Positions 16,852 to 34,524 of a stretch of DNA of 59,958 bases are shown here, in pieces. The notes beneath the pieces were generated by a model. The model saw only the letters and a list, made by a program, of their open reading frames with translations, did no database searches and was not told where the DNA came from. The stretch spans positions 1 to 59,958 of IMG/VR virus record IMGVR_UViG_3300025131_000039; one strand, 5' to 3'. The stretch is from a virus. Taxonomy: Duplodnaviria; Caudoviricetes. The number at the start of each line of letters is the position of its first letter. The stretch's first letter is position 1. The position numbers and the translations under genes are program-made.

Positions 16852-16880
16852 ATTATACACCTAACTACGCCAGTACGCAA
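16852..16880 (-). promoter_or_regulatory. sigma70-type promoter upstream of portal
   Basis: TTGCGT-17nt-TATAAT, -35 inside end of terL. Confidence 0.55.
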
Positions 16881-18402
16881 CCCTTTTCTTCTTTGGAACA
16901 TCATCATCCCATTCTGGATCTTCAGGATGTGTAAGATGCCACGACTCTCGCATGAAATGTACAGCCATAGTCAGGGCATCTACCTGATCATCATGAGCTG
17001 CATTGGGAAACTGTATCAGTTCTTCCAAGAGATCATCAGCCCACTTCTTATGTCTGGGTATCCAAACCTTTCCTGCTTCCATCATGGGAGAGGCTGCATA
17101 TACACGGCTAACCTTATCCCTATCTGGCAGATATTCTCTTACTGGTAGTCCACTTCTACGCATATCCTGTAGTAGCGACTGACCACTGGCTTTCTTCTCT
17201 ATGATACAGACATCAGGTTTGAAATCATTGTACAATACCTGTGATATCCTACGTAATTCAGGATATTCAAATCTTCCCTTCATATTACCCAGTAATATCA
17301 GGTTAGATACGTAGGCTTCTGCTCCATCTTCATCCTGATCGTACATGGAAAATATACCCCATGTCTGAATTACACTGTAATCTGCTGTGGTTTTCGTGGA
17401 GAAAGCCGTATCGTATGTCTGTAGGACAAAATCACACGTAGGAGGCTCATTGTAATCCCACCATTTTATCCATTTCTTCTTTATAAGCCCACCTTCCTCT
17501 GGAGTAGGGTTCTGCATGTACAATGCATTCCAGTAGCGTGCTCCATTGGAGGCTCTAATCTCATTCTCATCTATCTGTAGTACTTCATCTGGCTTCCATT
17601 CTGGAAAGTAGGACGATCCCACTGGTAGCTTTAAAAGTTCTGCTGCTTCATCATCTAGCCATGCAGGTATTCGTACCACCTCCCACGGAATAGTTTCATA
17701 TTCGCTCATATCCTCTTGCTGTTTTAGAAGCCATCCACATAAATCATCAAAATGATACCTTGTATTAATAATTAATATGGAACCGTTTGGCATTAAACGA
17801 GTTCGTAGACCAGCAGGATACCATTCCTTGACATATCTACGGCCAGCTTCGGAATATGAATCCTCTTCGGACATCACATCGTCCAATATCGCTATATTAG
17901 CCCCTCGTCCTGCAATTTGGCTACGGACCCCGGCTGCATAGTACGTTCCACCTTGGTTTGTTTTCCACTTCCCGGCTGCACGTACATCTGTTCGTAGAGA
18001 AACACCCTTGAAAATGTTCTGAAACTCTTCCGAATTGACAACATCACGTACAGAACGGCCAAAATCACTAGAAAGTTGATCAGAGTGAGACACAGTAAGA
18101 ATTTCATGTTGTGGATTTCTCCCTATATACCACGCTGGAAACAATTTGGAACAAATAACAGACTTCGAACTACGTGGTGGTAGGAACACCATTAGTCTTT
18201 TGATCTCTCCAGACTCTAATTGTTTTAATTTATTAGATATTAGCTCAATATGTCGTCCCATCTTCCAATCGGAAACAAGAATTGGAGCCATTAGTCGAAC
18301 AAATGTTAGGAAATCAGTCTGAGTACTCTGTAGTATACTTAGATTTAACAGGTTATTAAGATCTAAGTATGAAGATAATTGTTGTTCTTGTTGTATTTCC
18401 AT
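16861..18402 (-). CDS. terL: Terminase large subunit
   Basis: PPRSSKS Walker A-like, ILDD Walker B, ALYMQNP, DTAFS..TTADYS, FPNAAHDDQVDA nuclease motif. Confidence 0.95.
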   Translation of the reverse strand: MEIQQEQQLSSYLDLNNLLNLSILQSTQTDFLTFVRLMAPILVSDWKMGRHIELISNKLKQLESGEIKRLMVFLPPRSSKSVICSKLFPAWYIGRNPQHEILTVSHSDQLSSDFGRSVRDVVNSEEFQNIFKGVSLRTDVRAAGKWKTNQGGTYYAAGVRSQIAGRGANIAILDDVMSEEDSYSEAGRRYVKEWYPAGLRTRLMPNGSILIINTRYHFDDLCGWLLKQQEDMSEYETIPWEVVRIPAWLDDEAAELLKLPVGSSYFPEWKPDEVLQIDENEIRASNGARYWNALYMQNPTPEEGGLIKKKWIKWWDYNEPPTCDFVLQTYDTAFSTKTTADYSVIQTWGIFSMYDQDEDGAEAYVSNLILLGNMKGRFEYPELRRISQVLYNDFKPDVCIIEKKASGQSLLQDMRRSGLPVREYLPDRDKVSRVYAASPMMEAGKVWIPRHKKWADDLLEELIQFPNAAHDDQVDALTMAVHFMRESWHLTHPEDPEWDDDVPKKKRVAYWRS

Positions 18403-18484: not shown

Positions 18485-18694
18485 GTAATTTTTTTAGTAG
18501 CTCGGAAGTTATTGATAAGGTGGACTAATTATTAGCCCTTAAATTTTGGTAAATATGTGAGAGGGTGGTTATATATATATATATGCACATGCGTTCTTGC
18601 GGGTGGGGGCGCATGAAGACTTTAAAAGTCTTGACAAGTCTTGAAAAAAAGATACCTTGACCCAAAAACAACTACTAAGTAGTAGTTGGACGAA

Positions 18695-19096: not shown

Positions 19097-19138
19097 TACT
19101 ACTTAGCTTGGTTAAGTATACCAAGCAGTATTATTTAG
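19089..19138 (+). repeat. Type B bulged hairpin
   Basis: ctaaataatact-actta-gcttggt...accaagc-agtattatttag. Confidence 0.75.
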
Positions 19139-19352
19139 AATTTAGGAAGGAGATTGTCCGATGGTTTAAGGTTATGTCCGAAGAAGTGATCTGTGGCTAC
19201 TCTCTGGAGCCACGGCTATGGGGCAAAGCAGGATGACAGAGAGGCGGTAGGGAGAAGATAAATCGTCAATCCCTACCGTAGGAAAGAGGAGCAGCTATGC
19301 TCTTGAAATAGTTTGGCGTACCTTTTTCAACTCAAATCCGAAAGGAAATATC

Positions 19353-19553
19353 ATGTCTTTTGTAATGCAAGCTTTTGTCGATGGTGAATGGAAAAACATT
19401 AACCGTGGAAAAAACCAACATCAAAGAACTTGGAAGAAGATCAATTCTGAGTTGCCAGTTAGAGTTGTTCACTCTAACGGCTCTTTCAAAGTCACCTCTA
19501 ATGGTGAAAAGTTGGAAGGAACAGGCGAAGCCTTGTCCTTTGTGGCAAGGTAA
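19353..19553 (+). CDS. Early hypothetical protein
   Basis: Strong RBS gaaagga; 66 aa. Confidence 0.65.
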   Translation: MSFVMQAFVDGEWKNINRGKNQHQRTWKKINSELPVRVVHSNGSFKVTSNGEKLEGTGEALSFVAR

Positions 19554-19562
19554 TCTTGCAAA

Positions 19563-19614
19563 CTAATAATACCCTGTAGTAGAGTATCTTACGATACTAC
19601 AGGGTAATTATTAG
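19563..19614 (+). repeat. Type A intergenic hairpin H3
   Basis: ctaataat-accctgt-agtag-agtatc TTAC gatact-acagggt-a-attattag. Confidence 0.85.
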
Positions 19615-19700
19615 AAAGTTGTCTTTGATGAGCCACATTGAATGTGGTTCATTTAAGCTAACTTATCTTGAGTTAGTTTACCAAAGTACTGTGTACTTTT

Positions 19701-19932
19701 GGGAAGTAGTGGTGGATGGTGGTTCACTAGCCGTAAGGCTGAAAAATAGGACAAGCTAGGTCTGGCGAAAGCTCACTTAGTGTAACTACTCAAGGTTAGG
19801 GGCTTGAGGGAACTGATCATCTACTATCAGAGATACTTTGCAAGGTATCTTTGATAGTCAAGTGCATCCTAGTGTGTGCGACTCGGAGGCGTCCTCCCCG
19901 CAGCAGAAGGTTCGATTCCTTCTGGCTTCCCA
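19701..19932 (+). ncRNA. Candidate tRNA-like structured ncRNA (~232 nt)
   Basis: GGGAAGT(19701-07) pairs with GCTTCCC(19925-31); T-arm cagaagg-TTCGATT-ccttctg; D-like hairpin with GG; GNRA hairpins; no canonical anticodon arm. Confidence 0.55.
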
Positions 19933-19973
19933 TAAGTACATGGTACATAACTTGTCTTGAAAGGAGAAGAACT

Positions 19974-20192
19974 ATGTCAAAGAGAAAGGCCGAAAGGCAG
20001 TTGCAAAGGTTCTTGGATTGGTGCAATGCCAACCCACAAAGTACAAGTCAAGAGTGGGTCAAGAACTTTAAGAGAATGGGCTGGACAGCTCAGAGTGATT
20101 TCGGATTCTGGACTAGGGAGAATGAAGAACATCAAGCTTCAAAGAAGTTTGGTTTTGTTTTGAACAATCCCGGCAGGGAATTTACTAACTAA
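19974..20192 (+). CDS. Early hypothetical protein (MSKRKAERQ...)
   Basis: RBS gaaaggag before ATG 19974; the longer annotated start overlaps the RNA. Confidence 0.65.
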   Translation: MSKRKAERQLQRFLDWCNANPQSTSQEWVKNFKRMGWTAQSDFGFWTRENEEHQASKKFGFVLNNPGREFTN

Positions 20193-20705: not shown

Positions 20706-20714
20706 CTTGACAAC

Positions 20715-20766
20715 CTATTAAGTATCCTGTAGTAGATTACTTAAGATACTACAGGATGCTTAATAG
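20715..20766 (+). repeat. Type A-like intergenic hairpin H4
   Basis: 20-bp stem ctattaagtatcctgtagta/tactacaggatgcttaatag with one T-G pair. Confidence 0.8.
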
Positions 20767-20782
20767 AAATAGGAGATTTGAT

Positions 20783-32947: not shown

Positions 32948-33814
32948 ATGAAAGATATACATACATTAGTTGAAGATATCTATAGTCTTTTTGATCCAGA
33001 TGAATTACAGATGGATGAGAAGGAAATAGATAAACACGTAGATGAATTTGCAACCAACATAAAGGAGCATTTAAAACTATTCTTAAATGAGAAGCCTCGT
33101 AGTAGAAGTAATTTACGTCTATCAGCTATAGGTAAGAAGGATCGCCAGCTATGGTATGATATGTATACTACTGAGGATAAGATAATACCACTATCTTCTT
33201 CCACTCGTATCAAGTTTCTCTATGGTTATATACTTGAGGAACTTCTTATTGTATTGTCCAGACTAGCAGGACATACCGTTACTGATATGCAAAAGGAAGT
33301 TAGTGTGGAAGGAGTGAAGGGACATCAAGATTGTATGATTGATGGTGTCCTAGTAGATTGTAAGTCTGCATCTGATTATAGCTTTAAGAAGTTTGATAAG
33401 GGTAGGCTGGAGAGGGATGATCCATTCGGATACATTGCTCAGATATCAGCTTACGCAGAAGCTAATGATAAAGATGAGGCTGCATTCTTGGTTATCAATA
33501 AGGTAACTGGTGAGATATGTTTGTTACCTGTTCATTCTCTTGAGATGATTAATGCATCTGATAGGATTAAAGATCTTAAAGAGGTAATGAAACAGCAAGC
33601 TCCACCTGCCAGATGCTACTCCGATGTAGCTGATGGTGCTTCTGGTAACAGAAGGTTAGGTACTTCTTGTATATACTGTGCTCATAAGAAGTACTGTTGG
33701 AGTGATGCCAATGGTGGTGATGGATTGAGAGTCTTTAGATATGCAAATGGATATAGATATTTAACCACTGTATCTAGGACTCCTAAAGATGTACCAGAGG
33801 TTATAGATTGGTAG
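32948..33814 (+). CDS. Cas4-like PD-(D/E)xK exonuclease
   Basis: LRLS.IG..RQLWY, GH.D..IDG.LVD.KSAS, Y..Q...Y, C-terminal C..C.....C. Confidence 0.8.
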   Translation: MKDIHTLVEDIYSLFDPDELQMDEKEIDKHVDEFATNIKEHLKLFLNEKPRSRSNLRLSAIGKKDRQLWYDMYTTEDKIIPLSSSTRIKFLYGYILEELLIVLSRLAGHTVTDMQKEVSVEGVKGHQDCMIDGVLVDCKSASDYSFKKFDKGRLERDDPFGYIAQISAYAEANDKDEAAFLVINKVTGEICLLPVHSLEMINASDRIKDLKEVMKQQAPPARCYSDVADGASGNRRLGTSCIYCAHKKYCWSDANGGDGLRVFRYANGYRYLTTVSRTPKDVPEVIDW

Positions 33815-34524
33815 ATCACCATTGGTTGAAGTTTGGTAGTGATAAGACATTCCATGCTGACACATACAAGTTTGGCTTTGTCTATATCATTACCAACCTT
33901 CAGACTACCAAGGCATACATCGGATGTAAACAGTATATGATTAAGGCTAAGTTCGGAGAGAAGGAATCAAACTGGAGAGTATATACTGGTTCTTCCAAGT
34001 GGCTCAATGAAGACATAGAGAAGCTAGGTAAGAAGCATTTCAAGTTTGAGATCATAGCAGAGTATAAGAACAGACGTAGTCTTAGATACTATGAGCTGTA
34101 CTATCAGATGAAATATAATGTGCTTGCTTCTACTTTAGAAGGTACAGATGAACCAGCCTACTATAACTCACGAGTAGGTGGTAAGTTCTATCGGCCTGTT
34201 GAGAGCTATGAAGATCCTGAATATAGAAGGAAACAATCTGAGTCTTCAAATAAAAGATGGAGTGATCCTGAAAAGAGAAAGAAAATATCTGAGTCTTTAA
34301 AAAATTCTGAAGCATTTCAAAAATCTAGGAAAGATCCTGAATATAGAAGGAAACAATCTGAGGCTATGAAGAAAAGATGTGAAGATCCTGAATATAGAAA
34401 GAAACTGTCTGAGGCTGCGCAGAAAAGAACTGTTAATTATGATACTGAATATAGAAAGAAACTGTCTGAGGCTGCGAAGAAAGGATGGGTCAAAAGGAAA
34501 AGAAAGAAGAATGCAAGACGATGA
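33808..34524 (+). CDS. GIY-YIG family endonuclease with repeated C-terminal basic helices
   Basis: GFVYIITN...AYIG.K, Y.GSS, YYN; DPEYR[RK]K.SE repeats. Confidence 0.75.
   Translation: MVDHHWLKFGSDKTFHADTYKFGFVYIITNLQTTKAYIGCKQYMIKAKFGEKESNWRVYTGSSKWLNEDIEKLGKKHFKFEIIAEYKNRRSLRYYELYYQMKYNVLASTLEGTDEPAYYNSRVGGKFYRPVESYEDPEYRRKQSESSNKRWSDPEKRKKISESLKNSEAFQKSRKDPEYRRKQSEAMKKRCEDPEYRKKLSEAAQKRTVNYDTEYRKKLSEAAKKGWVKRKRKKNARR
34209..34480 (+). repeat. Coding tandem repeats (ga.cctgaatatagaa.gaaac..tctgag), ~5 units
   Basis: Units begin near 34210, 34262, 34331, 34381, 34441. Confidence 0.8.

What the first reader, a model, noticed from the sequence alone, without database searches (positions are those of the whole stretch)
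19701..19932. Candidate novel tRNA-mimic ncRNA with a ~170-nt structured insert, in the early region
Seen: 5' GGGAAGT pairs with 3' GCTTCCC followed by an unpaired A, like an acceptor stem (no encoded CCA). A canonical TTCGATT T-loop is closed by an extended 7-bp stem (19904-19924). A D-like hairpin tggtgga/ttcacta has a GG-containing loop (19710-19729). In place of an anticodon arm there are agcc-GTAA-ggct and ggc-GAAA-gct (GNRA loops), ctcaag/cttgag, a ~15-bp ctatcagagatactt...ggtatctttgatag helix, long-range tagga/tccta and cactt/aagtg pairs, and tgcg-ggagg/cctcc-cgca. Many pairs are G-T wobbles, favouring an RNA on the + strand. It lacks the G3-U70 pair and an obvious tag ORF of tmRNA, and I see no clear group I intron core. 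Inference: an RNase P/CCA-processed tRNA-like RNA (decoy for anticodon nucleases, Y-RNA-like scaffold, or a ribosome-interacting RNA).
Basis: partly seen in the sequence, partly recalled or inferred. Interest (0 to 1): 0.85.

Follow-up and report, generated by a model that had tools for sequence, protein, structure and literature searches.

The report
Phage RNA cassette mimicking tRNA top
A marine phage carries, just ahead of its first early genes, a strongly folded 232-base RNA gene whose two ends imitate the upper half of a transfer RNA, but it is not a normal tRNA and its function is still untested.

Summary
The sequence features are real. Bases 19701-19707 pair with 19925-19931. A canonical T-loop sits on a perfect 7-bp stem. 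Several hairpins have near-certain pairing probability, and the + strand folds far better than shuffles (z -5.15; - strand -2.87). No known model claims it: default ARAGORN and Rfam gathering thresholds give nothing. The RNA is the core of a cassette (19686-19946) whose leader and trailer extend the acceptor stem into a 22-position helix. In two metagenome contigs it follows a second structured RNA ("RNA-A"). The window lost RNA-A, and the closest relative has RNA-A only. Another relative has a tRNA-Tyr-like gene in the equivalent place. Only two haplotypes exist; their three differences all preserve predicted pairs, which is weak support. A covariance model found no match in 35 related records. 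ARAGORN with introns allowed gives a borderline tRNA-His with a 138-nt intron, but no intron model supports splicing. Best reading: a lineage-restricted, tRNA-derived accessory ncRNA, processed from the early transcript. Its function as a tRNA mimic or decoy is inferred only.

The parts
19563..19616 (+). Long intergenic hairpin (about 17-20 bp stem), member of a repeat family that recurs between early genes (second copy about 20712-20769)
   Evidence: (family D4); role (RNase III site or terminator) is inferred
19617..19683 (+). Conserved module GAAAGTTGTCTTTGATGAGCCACATTGAATGTGGTTCATTTAAGCTAACTTATCTTGAG that precedes the RNA cassettes in the window, L002, L005 and L180/L216. Putative early promoter or regulatory module.
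   Evidence: the sigma-70 consensus scan did not list it, so a promoter role is inference
19686..19698 (+). Leader strand GUACUGUGUACUU, pairs with the trailer 19934-19946
   Evidence: MFE of 19672-19960, z -6.16; G19686 partner C19946 becomes U in L180/L216, pair kept
19701..19932 (+). The 232-nt tRNA-like RNA ('RNA-B')
19701..19707 (+). Acceptor-like stem, 5' strand (pairs with 19925-19931; U19700 also pairs with A19932)
19714..19725 (+). 5' strand of a 12-bp long-range helix with 19810-19822.
   Evidence: p 0.87-1.0; G19719.U19817 becomes G-C in L180/L216
19728..19741 (+). 5-bp hairpin UAGCC-GUAA-GGCUG (GNRA loop)
19755..19781 (+). Hairpin GCUAGGU/ACUUAGU with inner GGC-GAAA-GCU
   Evidence: C19766>U in L180/L216 keeps the pair with G19771
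19789..19808 (+). Hairpin CUCAAG-GUUAGGGG-CUUGAG
19823..19858 (+). 16-bp hairpin with UGCA loop
19885..19897 (+). Hairpin GGAGG-CGU-CCUCC (in the position of a long variable arm)
19904..19924 (+). T-arm: 7-bp stem plus loop UUCGAUU
19925..19932 (+). Acceptor-like stem 3' strand GCUUCCC plus A. CCA is not encoded in the 7/7 reading. In the ARAGORN frame the last three bases read C-C-A.
19934..19946 (+). Trailer strand AAGUACAUGGUAC, pairs with the leader
19974..20192 (+). Downstream 72-aa early gene of unknown function (RBS AAGGAG at 19961-19966). Its homologs define the slot in relatives.

Best explanation
19701-19932 is a real non-coding RNA gene on the + strand. It is the core of a 261-nt cassette (19686-19946) in the leader of the phage's early operon.

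The two ends form a 7-bp acceptor-like stem that abuts a 7-bp T-arm with a canonical T-loop, so together they imitate the top half of a tRNA. The roughly 190 nt between them form a multi-helix body instead of D and anticodon arms.

It most likely descends from a phage tRNA gene. A relative has a tRNA-Tyr-like gene in the equivalent slot, and the 3' end also fits the tRNA-His gene pattern.

It is an accessory module that can be present or absent independently of a neighbouring structured RNA (RNA-A).

Inferred mechanism:
1. It is co-transcribed with the early genes.
2. It is cut out through its 22-position closing helix (RNase III-type substrate) and/or at U19700|G19701 by RNase P.
3. It then acts in trans through its tRNA-like end, for example by occupying a tRNA-binding enzyme or a tRNA-targeting defence nuclease.

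Shown: the structure signal, the cassette anatomy, the modular presence/absence and the failure of known models. Inferred: transcription, processing and function.
For: Structure:
- z -5.15 for the RNA and z -6.16 for the cassette, with 0 of 200 shuffles as good in each case. The - strand gives only -2.87.
- Acceptor and T-arm have p about 1.

Not coding:
- 0 PHROG hits for the 4 overlapping ORFs.
- The downstream gene keeps its own RBS and ATG in relatives that lack the RNA.

Not a known family: (-m).

Cassette and modularity:
- L180/L216 carry RNA-A followed by this RNA.
- The window lacks RNA-A.
- L002 carries RNA-A only, at the same place.
- RNA-A shows compensatory changes in 3 of 14 closing-stem pairs. 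The slot therefore hosts at least one RNA that evolves under structural constraint.

tRNA link:
- L007 has an ARAGORN tRNA-Tyr(gta) 20 nt upstream of the homologous gene.
- That tRNA has acceptor GGGCAGT/GCTGCCC plus A, against GGGAAGT/GCTTCCC plus A here, and the same GGTTCGATTCC.

Variation: the 3 substitutions between the two haplotypes all fall on predicted pairs and keep them. p = 0.066 for random transitions and 0.0025 for random substitutions of any type.

Spread: identical sequence occurs in contigs of 4 of 4 runs laid, from 4 studies.
Against: - No transcript evidence. No RNA run was listed as a holder.
- Only two haplotypes, so no true covariation test. 'Not breaking a pair' has p = 0.34 for transitions.
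- The low divergence of the cassette (3 in 274) is matched by 0 in the next 138 nt. It may reflect a recent recombination block, not selection.
- No homolog by BLAST in 34 related records, or by covariance model in 35 related records. The RNA is dispensable for close relatives.
- The favoured fold leaves no D-loop GG free to dock on the T-loop, so a full tRNA elbow may not form.
- The acceptor plus T stack is 14 bp, against 12 in tRNAs. Whether RNase P, the CCA-adding enzyme or synthetases would accept it is unknown.
- Similarity of the 5' interior to the L007 tRNA is not significant (479 of 2000 shuffles).
- The L007 tRNA is itself below Rfam threshold (22.2 bits).
- No consensus promoter was listed directly upstream.
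Confidence: 0.5

Rival explanations
1. It is a cis-acting leader or processing element only. The long closing helix and the tRNA-like end serve as RNase III / RNase P 'punctuation'. They would define or stabilise the 5' end of the downstream early mRNA, and the excised RNA would have no job of its own.
For: - It lies in the 5' leader of gene 19974-20192, with no terminator-like site between it and the gene.
- The closing helix spans 22 positions.
- Other long hairpins recur between early genes.
- RNA-A occupies the same leader in relatives.
Against: - 232 nt of elaborate, well-folded body is far more than a cleavage signal needs.
- Relatives express the same gene with RNA-A, or with a tRNA-like gene instead.
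- The RBS is not sequestered by the fold.
Confidence: 0.2
2. It is a decayed tRNA gene or a recombination scar: a tRNA gene disrupted by inserted sequence and drifting, with residual structure but no function.
For: - It is absent from the closest relative and from 35 related records.
- There is no encoded CCA, while the L007 tRNA encodes CCA.
- It shares an 11-mer, TAGTGGTGGAT, with RNA-A, which suggests illegitimate recombination (8 of 1000 shuffles reach 11).
- The window shows a precise deletion between TCTTGAG repeats.
Against: - The inserted body is itself very well folded (z -5.15), with GNRA-capped helices. Random insertions are not.
- All 3 substitutions keep pairs.
- The same sequence occurs in metagenomes of several studies.
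Confidence: 0.15
3. It is an interrupted but functional tRNA gene. ARAGORN reads tRNA-His(GUG) with G-1:C73, a 138-nt intron (19735-19872) and a long variable arm. After self-splicing it would decode His.
For: - ARAGORN -i calls it at default thresholds with score 102.4. This was the only intron-containing call in 520,595 nt of related loci.
- The 3' end pattern GGTTCGATTCC-N5-GCTNCCCA is mostly tRNA-His in metagenomes: 14 of the 20 other ARAGORN calls among 71 hits.
- G19702 can pair with C19930 as G-1:C73.
- At ARAGORN's boundaries the 5' exon ends in U and the intron ends in G, as group I introns require (reading).
Against: - No group I or group II model hit, even at E <= 10 on 501 nt.
- 138 nt is below known group I sizes (recalled).
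- The splice-site U sits in the GUAA loop rather than in a U.G pair (reading).
- Position 37 would be U. In the tRNA-His anticodon loops I read by eye it is a purine.
- The anticodon stem has a C.A mismatch, and the acceptor in that frame has an A.G mismatch and two G.U pairs.
- tRNA-His has no long variable arm (established knowledge).
- The score is at the bottom of the 100-125 range of the other calls.
- That fold costs 21 kcal/mol in the unspliced RNA.
Confidence: 0.1
4. It is a reduced tmRNA or a Y-RNA-like (YrlA) scaffold.
For: - Its topology resembles the tmRNA tRNA-like domain: acceptor stem, T-arm, and a helix formed by the segment after the acceptor with the segment before the T-arm (19709-12/19898-901, p 0.66).
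- The window has GGCGAAAG, which fits the YrlA motif GNCGAAN0-1G (PMC4201824, passages).
Against: - The pair is G3-C70, not G3.U70.
- There is no tag frame.
- ARAGORN -m and all Rfam tmRNA models are silent.
- No TROVE gene in the phage, while the control genomes ring.
- The YrlA-like motif is GGTGAAAG in L180/L216.
- YrlA has its ends at the anticodon-stem side (PMC4201824).
Confidence: 0.03

Closest known systems
Phage-encoded tRNA genes, in particular the tRNA-Tyr(gta)-like gene of relative L007 (349..274, - strand)
   Same: - Same slot, immediately upstream of the homologous 72-aa gene.
- Near-identical acceptor with one compensatory pair.
- Discriminator A.
- Identical GGTTCGATTCC T-loop region.
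- Both score about 22 bits on Rfam tRNA-Sec and stay below threshold.
   Different: - 232 nt against 76 nt.
- No 7-nt anticodon loop.
- T-stem of 7 bp rather than 5.
- No encoded CCA.
- Leader and trailer are paired.
- Interior similarity is not significant.
tmRNA tRNA-like domain
   Same: - Acceptor plus T-arm with no anticodon arm.
- A large structured body lies between the two halves.
   Different: - No G3.U70.
- No tag reading frame.
- No model hit.
- Shorter than typical tmRNAs (recalled).
YrlA / bacterial Y RNAs (PMC4201824)
   Same: - ncRNAs with a tRNA-like module, also found in phages.
- M. smegmatis YrlA is cut by RNase P and receives CCA (passages read).
   Different: - YrlA lies within 4 kb of a Ro60/TROVE gene. 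None is present here.
- Permuted topology.
- The binding motif is not conserved here.
Group I intron-bearing bacterial tRNA genes (recalled: cyanobacterial tRNA-Leu, Azoarcus tRNA-Ile)
   Same: - A tRNA frame interrupted in the anticodon region.
- U before and G at the end of the ARAGORN intron.
   Different: - No Rfam intron hit.
- 138 nt.
- No U.G pair at the splice site.
Phage tRNA-Tyr as supplement or decoy against PtuAB/Septu (PMC11555353, PMC13096335; abstracts and passages read)
   Same: - A single tRNA-Tyr-type gene in a phage early or accessory region, as in L007.
- A tRNA-derived RNA, as here.
[quoted passage not shown] In a tRNA-based alignment, that is where this RNA carries its huge extra body.
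   Different: - Those are decoding tRNAs shown to work by dosage.
- Nothing is tested for this RNA, and its host and that host's defences are unknown.
T4 stable RNAs of unknown function in the tRNA cluster (species 1 and 2; recalled, not looked up)
   Same: Phage small stable RNAs encoded with tRNAs and processed with them.
   Different: No sequence or structure comparison was made here.

Membership tests
canonical tRNA | Detected by ARAGORN default / Rfam RF00005 at gathering score | tested here: not met
   0 genes. No gathering-level hit. Best clan hit is tRNA-Sec at 21.8 bits against a threshold of 47, over 19853-19930 only.
canonical tRNA | 7-bp acceptor stem abutting a T-arm with a T-loop | tested here: met
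   However, the T-stem is 7 bp, so the stack is 14 bp rather than 12.
canonical tRNA | D-arm with GG loop | tested here: inconclusive
   The complementary segments exist (19710-16/19723-29), but p is about 0 and forcing them costs +5.3 kcal/mol.
canonical tRNA | Anticodon arm with 7-nt loop | tested here: not met
   The hairpin after the D region has a 4-nt GUAA loop. A 7-nt loop appears only if 138 nt are removed.
tRNA-His (with intron) | G-1:C73, GUG anticodon, purine 37, short variable loop, a splicing mechanism | tested here: inconclusive
   G-1:C73 and GUG are possible. U37, the long variable arm and the absence of any intron model hit argue against. ARAGORN score 102.4.
tmRNA | G3.U70, tag ORF, model hit | tested here: not met
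   (-m, also -ps80).
group I intron | Conserved core (P3-P8, G-binding P7) detectable by RF00028 | tested here: not met
   No hit at E <= 10 in 19500-20000.
YrlA / Y RNA | Ro60 (TROVE) gene within a few kb | tested here: not met
   PF05731: 0 matches in the 98%-complete record. The control rings in D. radiodurans and B. thetaiotaomicron.
YrlA / Y RNA | Conserved GNCGAAN0-1G near the 5' end | tested here: not met
   GGCGAAAG lies at 19764-19771, not near the 5' end, and reads GGTGAAAG in L180/L216.
expressed, processed ncRNA | Discrete transcript with defined ends | not testable with these tools
   Only DNA contigs were available.

The most novel reading that the evidence does not exclude
This would be a new class of phage counter-defence RNA. 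In it, a tRNA (Tyr- or His-type) top half is fused to a large folded body grown at the anticodon/variable region. It would be excised from the early transcript and would serve as a non-decodable decoy or sponge for tRNA-targeting immune nucleases, or for another tRNA-binding host factor. It would be exchanged among related phages as a cassette, alongside a second unknown RNA (RNA-A).
Probability: 0.15. Interest if true: 0.8.

Novelty: new variant of a known kind. Interest (0 to 1): 0.5.

Why it matters
Phage tRNAs have recently been shown to defeat tRNA-cleaving defences by supplying extra tRNA (PMC11555353, PMC13096335).

A tRNA-derived RNA that can no longer decode, yet keeps the acceptor/T-arm face and has gained a large ordered body, would be something different. 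It would be an RNA-only mimic evolved from a tRNA gene in a DNA phage.

The locus also shows that the leader of this phage group's early operon is a swap site for structured RNAs: RNA-A, this RNA, or a tRNA-Tyr-like gene. That gives three natural genotypes to compare.

If the RNA turns out to be only a processing signal or a scar, the finding is of local interest only.

Tried and rejected
Homolog searches for covariation:
- Three exact or IUPAC patterns in IMG/VR gave 0 hits.
- The looser pattern N{3,5} gave 77 loci, all ordinary or odd tRNA-like 3' ends and none with the 5-nt spacing.
- BLAST against 34 related records gave only 14-19-nt chance pieces.
- Covariance model R1 gave 0 of 35 records at E <= 1. 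Against the 76 pattern loci it gave only ordinary tRNAs at 18 bits or less.
- The metagenome scan gave 71 loci, of which 2 (L180, L216) are true copies.
- The genome scan gave 1 chance match inside a coding region, with no tRNA there.
- blastn against GenBank phages gave no match.

Sequencing runs:
- No RNA holder was listed.
- The four runs laid were DNA contigs identical to the window, so they gave no variants.
- Parts without cover in those runs mean nothing.
- The one joint (19636 to 19948, 20-nt sides) continues into a different gene. I take it to be another copy of the repeated module, not a haplotype of this slot.

Rejected readings:
- tRNA-Tyr ancestry of the 5' interior. The ungapped look-alike with L007 is not significant.
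- A cloverleaf I built with stem 19726-30/19869-73 and anticodon GUA costs 14.6 kcal/mol and needs C33.
- Stronger conservation of the RNA than of its flanks. The next 138 nt are also unchanged.
- RF00005 over 36 related records gave 0 hits. It missed even the L007 gene, so it says little.

Other limits:
- Supplements of the three papers were not opened and could hold tRNA-Tyr sequence sets relevant to the comparison.
- No literature search was made for this exact RNA beyond. None of the listed titles describes it.

Full report
**What the window is.** The 59,958-nt window is a whole IMG/VR virus record estimated 98% complete. TerL (16861-18402, -) and portal lie to the left on the - strand. 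A + strand block with small ORFans, ParB-like, ThyX, primase/helicase, PolA and RNR genes starts near 18.9 kb, and GC skew flips there. The nearest cultured relatives by TerL are Pelagibacter phages HTVC027P and HTVC023P at about 42% identity. The host is therefore unknown beyond 'marine bacterium'. The finding lies about 1.3 kb into the early block.

**Checking the observation.** Partition-function probabilities give p about 1 for these elements:
- the acceptor-like stem (19701-07/19925-31);
- the 7-bp T-stem around UUCGAUU (19904-24);
- the GUAA hairpin;
- the GAAA hairpin and the helix that encloses it;
- CUCAAG/CUUGAG;
- the 16-bp hairpin;
- GGAGG/CCUCC.

The MFE is -93.7 kcal/mol, z -5.15, and 0 of 200 shuffles fold as well. 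The reverse strand gives z -2.87, so the structure is strand-specific, as the G.U argument predicted.

The D-like hairpin, tagga/tccta and cactt/aagtg all have p about 0. Enforcing the D hairpin costs 5.3 kcal/mol, and adding the two long-range pairs costs 13.6. Instead, 19714-25 pairs with 19810-22 (12 bp, p 0.87-1.0). The 'tRNA-likeness' that is solid is therefore the top half only: the acceptor stem plus the T-arm.

**The element is bigger than reported.** Folding 19672-19960 shows leader 19686-98 paired with trailer 19934-46. With U19700-A19932 this extends the acceptor stem into a helix of 22 positions with one U.U mismatch (z -6.16). Three of its pairs are G.U, again pointing to RNA on the + strand.

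**Known families.**
- ARAGORN default finds nothing in the window, and Rfam gathering thresholds find nothing.
- At E <= 10 on 501 nt, the only relevant hit is tRNA-Sec at 21.8 bits (threshold 47). It covers the T-arm and the 3' acceptor strand. No tmRNA, intron, ribozyme or Y-RNA model appears.
- ARAGORN in tmRNA mode finds nothing, even at relaxed threshold.
- No frame gives a tag-like peptide.
- G3 pairs with C, not U.
- No TROVE/Ro60 gene is present, while the control genomes ring.

With introns allowed, ARAGORN calls tRNA-His(GUG). The acceptor is shifted by two bases so that G19702 can serve as G-1 opposite C19930. The call has a 138-nt intron at 32/33 and a long variable arm. Its score is 102.4, at the bottom of the 100-125 range of the other calls. 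It was the only intron call in 520,595 nt of related loci. I keep this as a rival (see below).

**Relatives and the slot.** TerL brought in 80 related loci, and none contains the RNA. In the closest one (L002, TerL 98%) the flanks align on both sides. The 265 nt around the RNA are replaced there by a different 115-nt element closed by a 15-17-bp stem (z -7.06). I call that element RNA-A.

RNA-A occurs in L002, L005, L007 and L012/L013 and is absent from the window. Five distinct RNA-A sequences show compensatory double changes in 3 of 14 closing-stem pairs. RNA-A is therefore under structural constraint. It has no Rfam match.

The single metagenome scan returned two true copies of the tRNA-like RNA (L180, L216). 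In both the order is: module - TCTTGAG - RNA-A - TCTTGAG - leader - tRNA-like RNA - trailer - gene. The window equals that arrangement minus RNA-A, with the junction exactly at the repeated TCTTGAG.

Three genotypes therefore exist: RNA-A only, both RNAs, and the tRNA-like RNA only. The two RNAs are independent, dispensable cassettes. They share the 11-mer TAGTGGTGGAT, which is the 5' closing strand of RNA-A (8 of 1000 shuffles reach 11). This points either to recombination history or to alternative pairing in the tandem transcript. I cannot tell which.

**Link to tRNA genes.** L007 carries an ARAGORN tRNA-Tyr(gta) of 76 nt with encoded CCA, ending 20 nt before the start of the homolog of window gene 19974-20192. 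Its acceptor differs from ours by one compensatory pair (C4-G69 against A4-U69). The discriminator is A in both, and GGTTCGATTCC is identical.

That tRNA is itself non-canonical. Its best Rfam hit is 22.2 bits on tRNA-Sec, and the RF00005 search of its record was silent.

In IMG/VR the pattern GGTTCGATTCC-N3-GCTNCCCA belongs to tRNA-Tyr in 27 of the 33 sites that ARAGORN called, out of 77 hits. With the 5-nt spacing that our RNA has, the metagenome hits that ARAGORN calls are mostly tRNA-His: 14 of 20, leaving out the two copies of our RNA, with 49 of the 71 hits not tRNA at all. In those tRNA-His genes the spacing arises from a 5-bp T-stem, a 7-nt acceptor strand, C73 and CA.

The 3' end therefore fits two frames:
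- Tyr-like, with a T-stem lengthened by two Watson-Crick pairs;
- His-like, with a weak acceptor (A.G mismatch and two G.U pairs).

The first frame is thermodynamically better. Similarity of the 5' interior to the L007 tRNA is not significant (479 of 2000 shuffles). Descent from a tRNA gene is likely, but which one is open. No bacterial species-representative genome has a tRNA with this 22-nt 3' end.

**Natural variation.** Contigs of four runs from four studies are identical to the window over what they cover. L180 and L216 differ from the window at three places in 19673-19946:
- 19766 C>U (partner G19771);
- 19817 U>C (partner G19719);
- 19946 C>U (partner G19686).

Each falls on a predicted pair and keeps it. 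The second change supports the long-range helix rather than a free D-loop G19. The chance of three paired-and-kept changes is 0.066 for random transitions and 0.0025 for any substitution. The chance of merely not breaking a pair is 0.34 and 0.078.

The cassette has 3 changes in 274 nt, against 13 in the 219-nt downstream gene. However, the first 111 nt of that gene have none, and the region upstream of 19560 is only 74% identical. The pattern is mosaic and cannot be read as selection on the RNA.

**How it probably works.**
- Shown: a strand-specific, very stable fold. An acceptor/T-arm module. A closing helix long enough for RNase III. U at -1 and G at +1, as RNase P prefers (established knowledge). 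No terminator-like site before the next gene. Cassette behaviour among relatives.
- Inferred: transcription with the early genes, excision, and action in trans through the tRNA-like face.

The functional guess leans on recent work showing that PtuAB/Septu and retron-Eco7 deplete tRNA-Tyr by cutting its variable loop, and that phage tRNA-Tyr rescues infection, possibly as a 'decoy or supplement' (PMC11555353 and PMC13096335, abstracts and passages). A lone tRNA-Tyr-like gene in L007 fits that theme. Our RNA, which cannot decode, would be a pure mimic. Nothing here tests this.

**Why not the intron reading.**
- No group I or II model hit appears.
- 138 nt is shorter than known group I introns (recalled).
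- The splice-site U lies in the GUAA tetraloop rather than in a U.G pair.
- Position 37 would be U.
- There are mismatches in both the anticodon and acceptor stems.
- A long variable arm is foreign to tRNA-His.

In its favour:
- the default-threshold ARAGORN call;
- the tRNA-His-like 3' pattern;
- G-1:C73;
- a U before and a G at the end of the proposed intron.

I give it 0.1.

**Verdict.** It is best filed as a new variant of a known kind: a tRNA-derived or tRNA-like phage ncRNA. It is lineage-restricted, real as a structure, and unproven as a transcript or a function.

Noticed in passing
L002:2091-2205(-), L005:126-222(-), L007:663-791(-), L012:2220-2388(-), L180:795-908(-); absent from the window: RNA-A is a 97-169-nt structured RNA in the same early leader. 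It has an invariant core GGTTTGTCAGCCAACACC, a hairpin with loop CTTGACAAG and a variable inserted hairpin. Compensatory changes occur in 3 of 14 closing-stem pairs. It has no Rfam match, and only 5 IMG/VR contigs hold the core.
   Followed up: partly
window 18631-18643 and the RNA-A 3' hairpin (e.g. L002 about 2103-2125): The 13-mer TTGACAAGTCTTG occurs in the divergent region between TerL and the early genes, and again as the loop and 3' stem of the RNA-A hairpin. A similar TTGACAAGTCTT stands before the module in L216. It may be a -35-type promoter box or a protein binding site.
   Followed up: no
window 19563-19616 and 20712-20769; several copies in L002: A repeated 17-20-bp intergenic hairpin (…ACCCTGTAGTA…TACTACAGGGT…) lies between early genes, followed in some copies by a conserved 65-nt module. 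These look like processing or regulatory units of the early operon.
   Followed up: partly
window 19135-19345 (+): A 210-nt stretch with no convincing ORF lies between two small early genes and folds moderately well (z -2.85, 2 of 200 shuffles as good). It may be another leader or RNA.
   Followed up: partly
window 33808-34524 (+): A SegE-like GIY-YIG homing endonuclease gene (Pfam PF19835, E 1.2e-27) lies in the replication block.
   Followed up: no
IMG/VR loci such as L084, L097, L098, L102, L109, L120, L158: Among the 77 IMG/VR hits to the Tyr-type 3' pattern, 44 are not called as tRNAs by ARAGORN. They include a sequence recurring in more than 20 contigs and several that look by eye like acceptor-plus-T-arm 'minihelix' elements. 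They could be attP-type tRNA fragments or other tRNA-like RNAs.
   Followed up: no
L007:274-349 (-): The relative's tRNA-Tyr(gta) has a 3-bp D-stem and a C.C mismatch in the anticodon stem, and it scores below Rfam threshold (22.2 bits). It may itself be a non-standard tRNA.
   Followed up: partly
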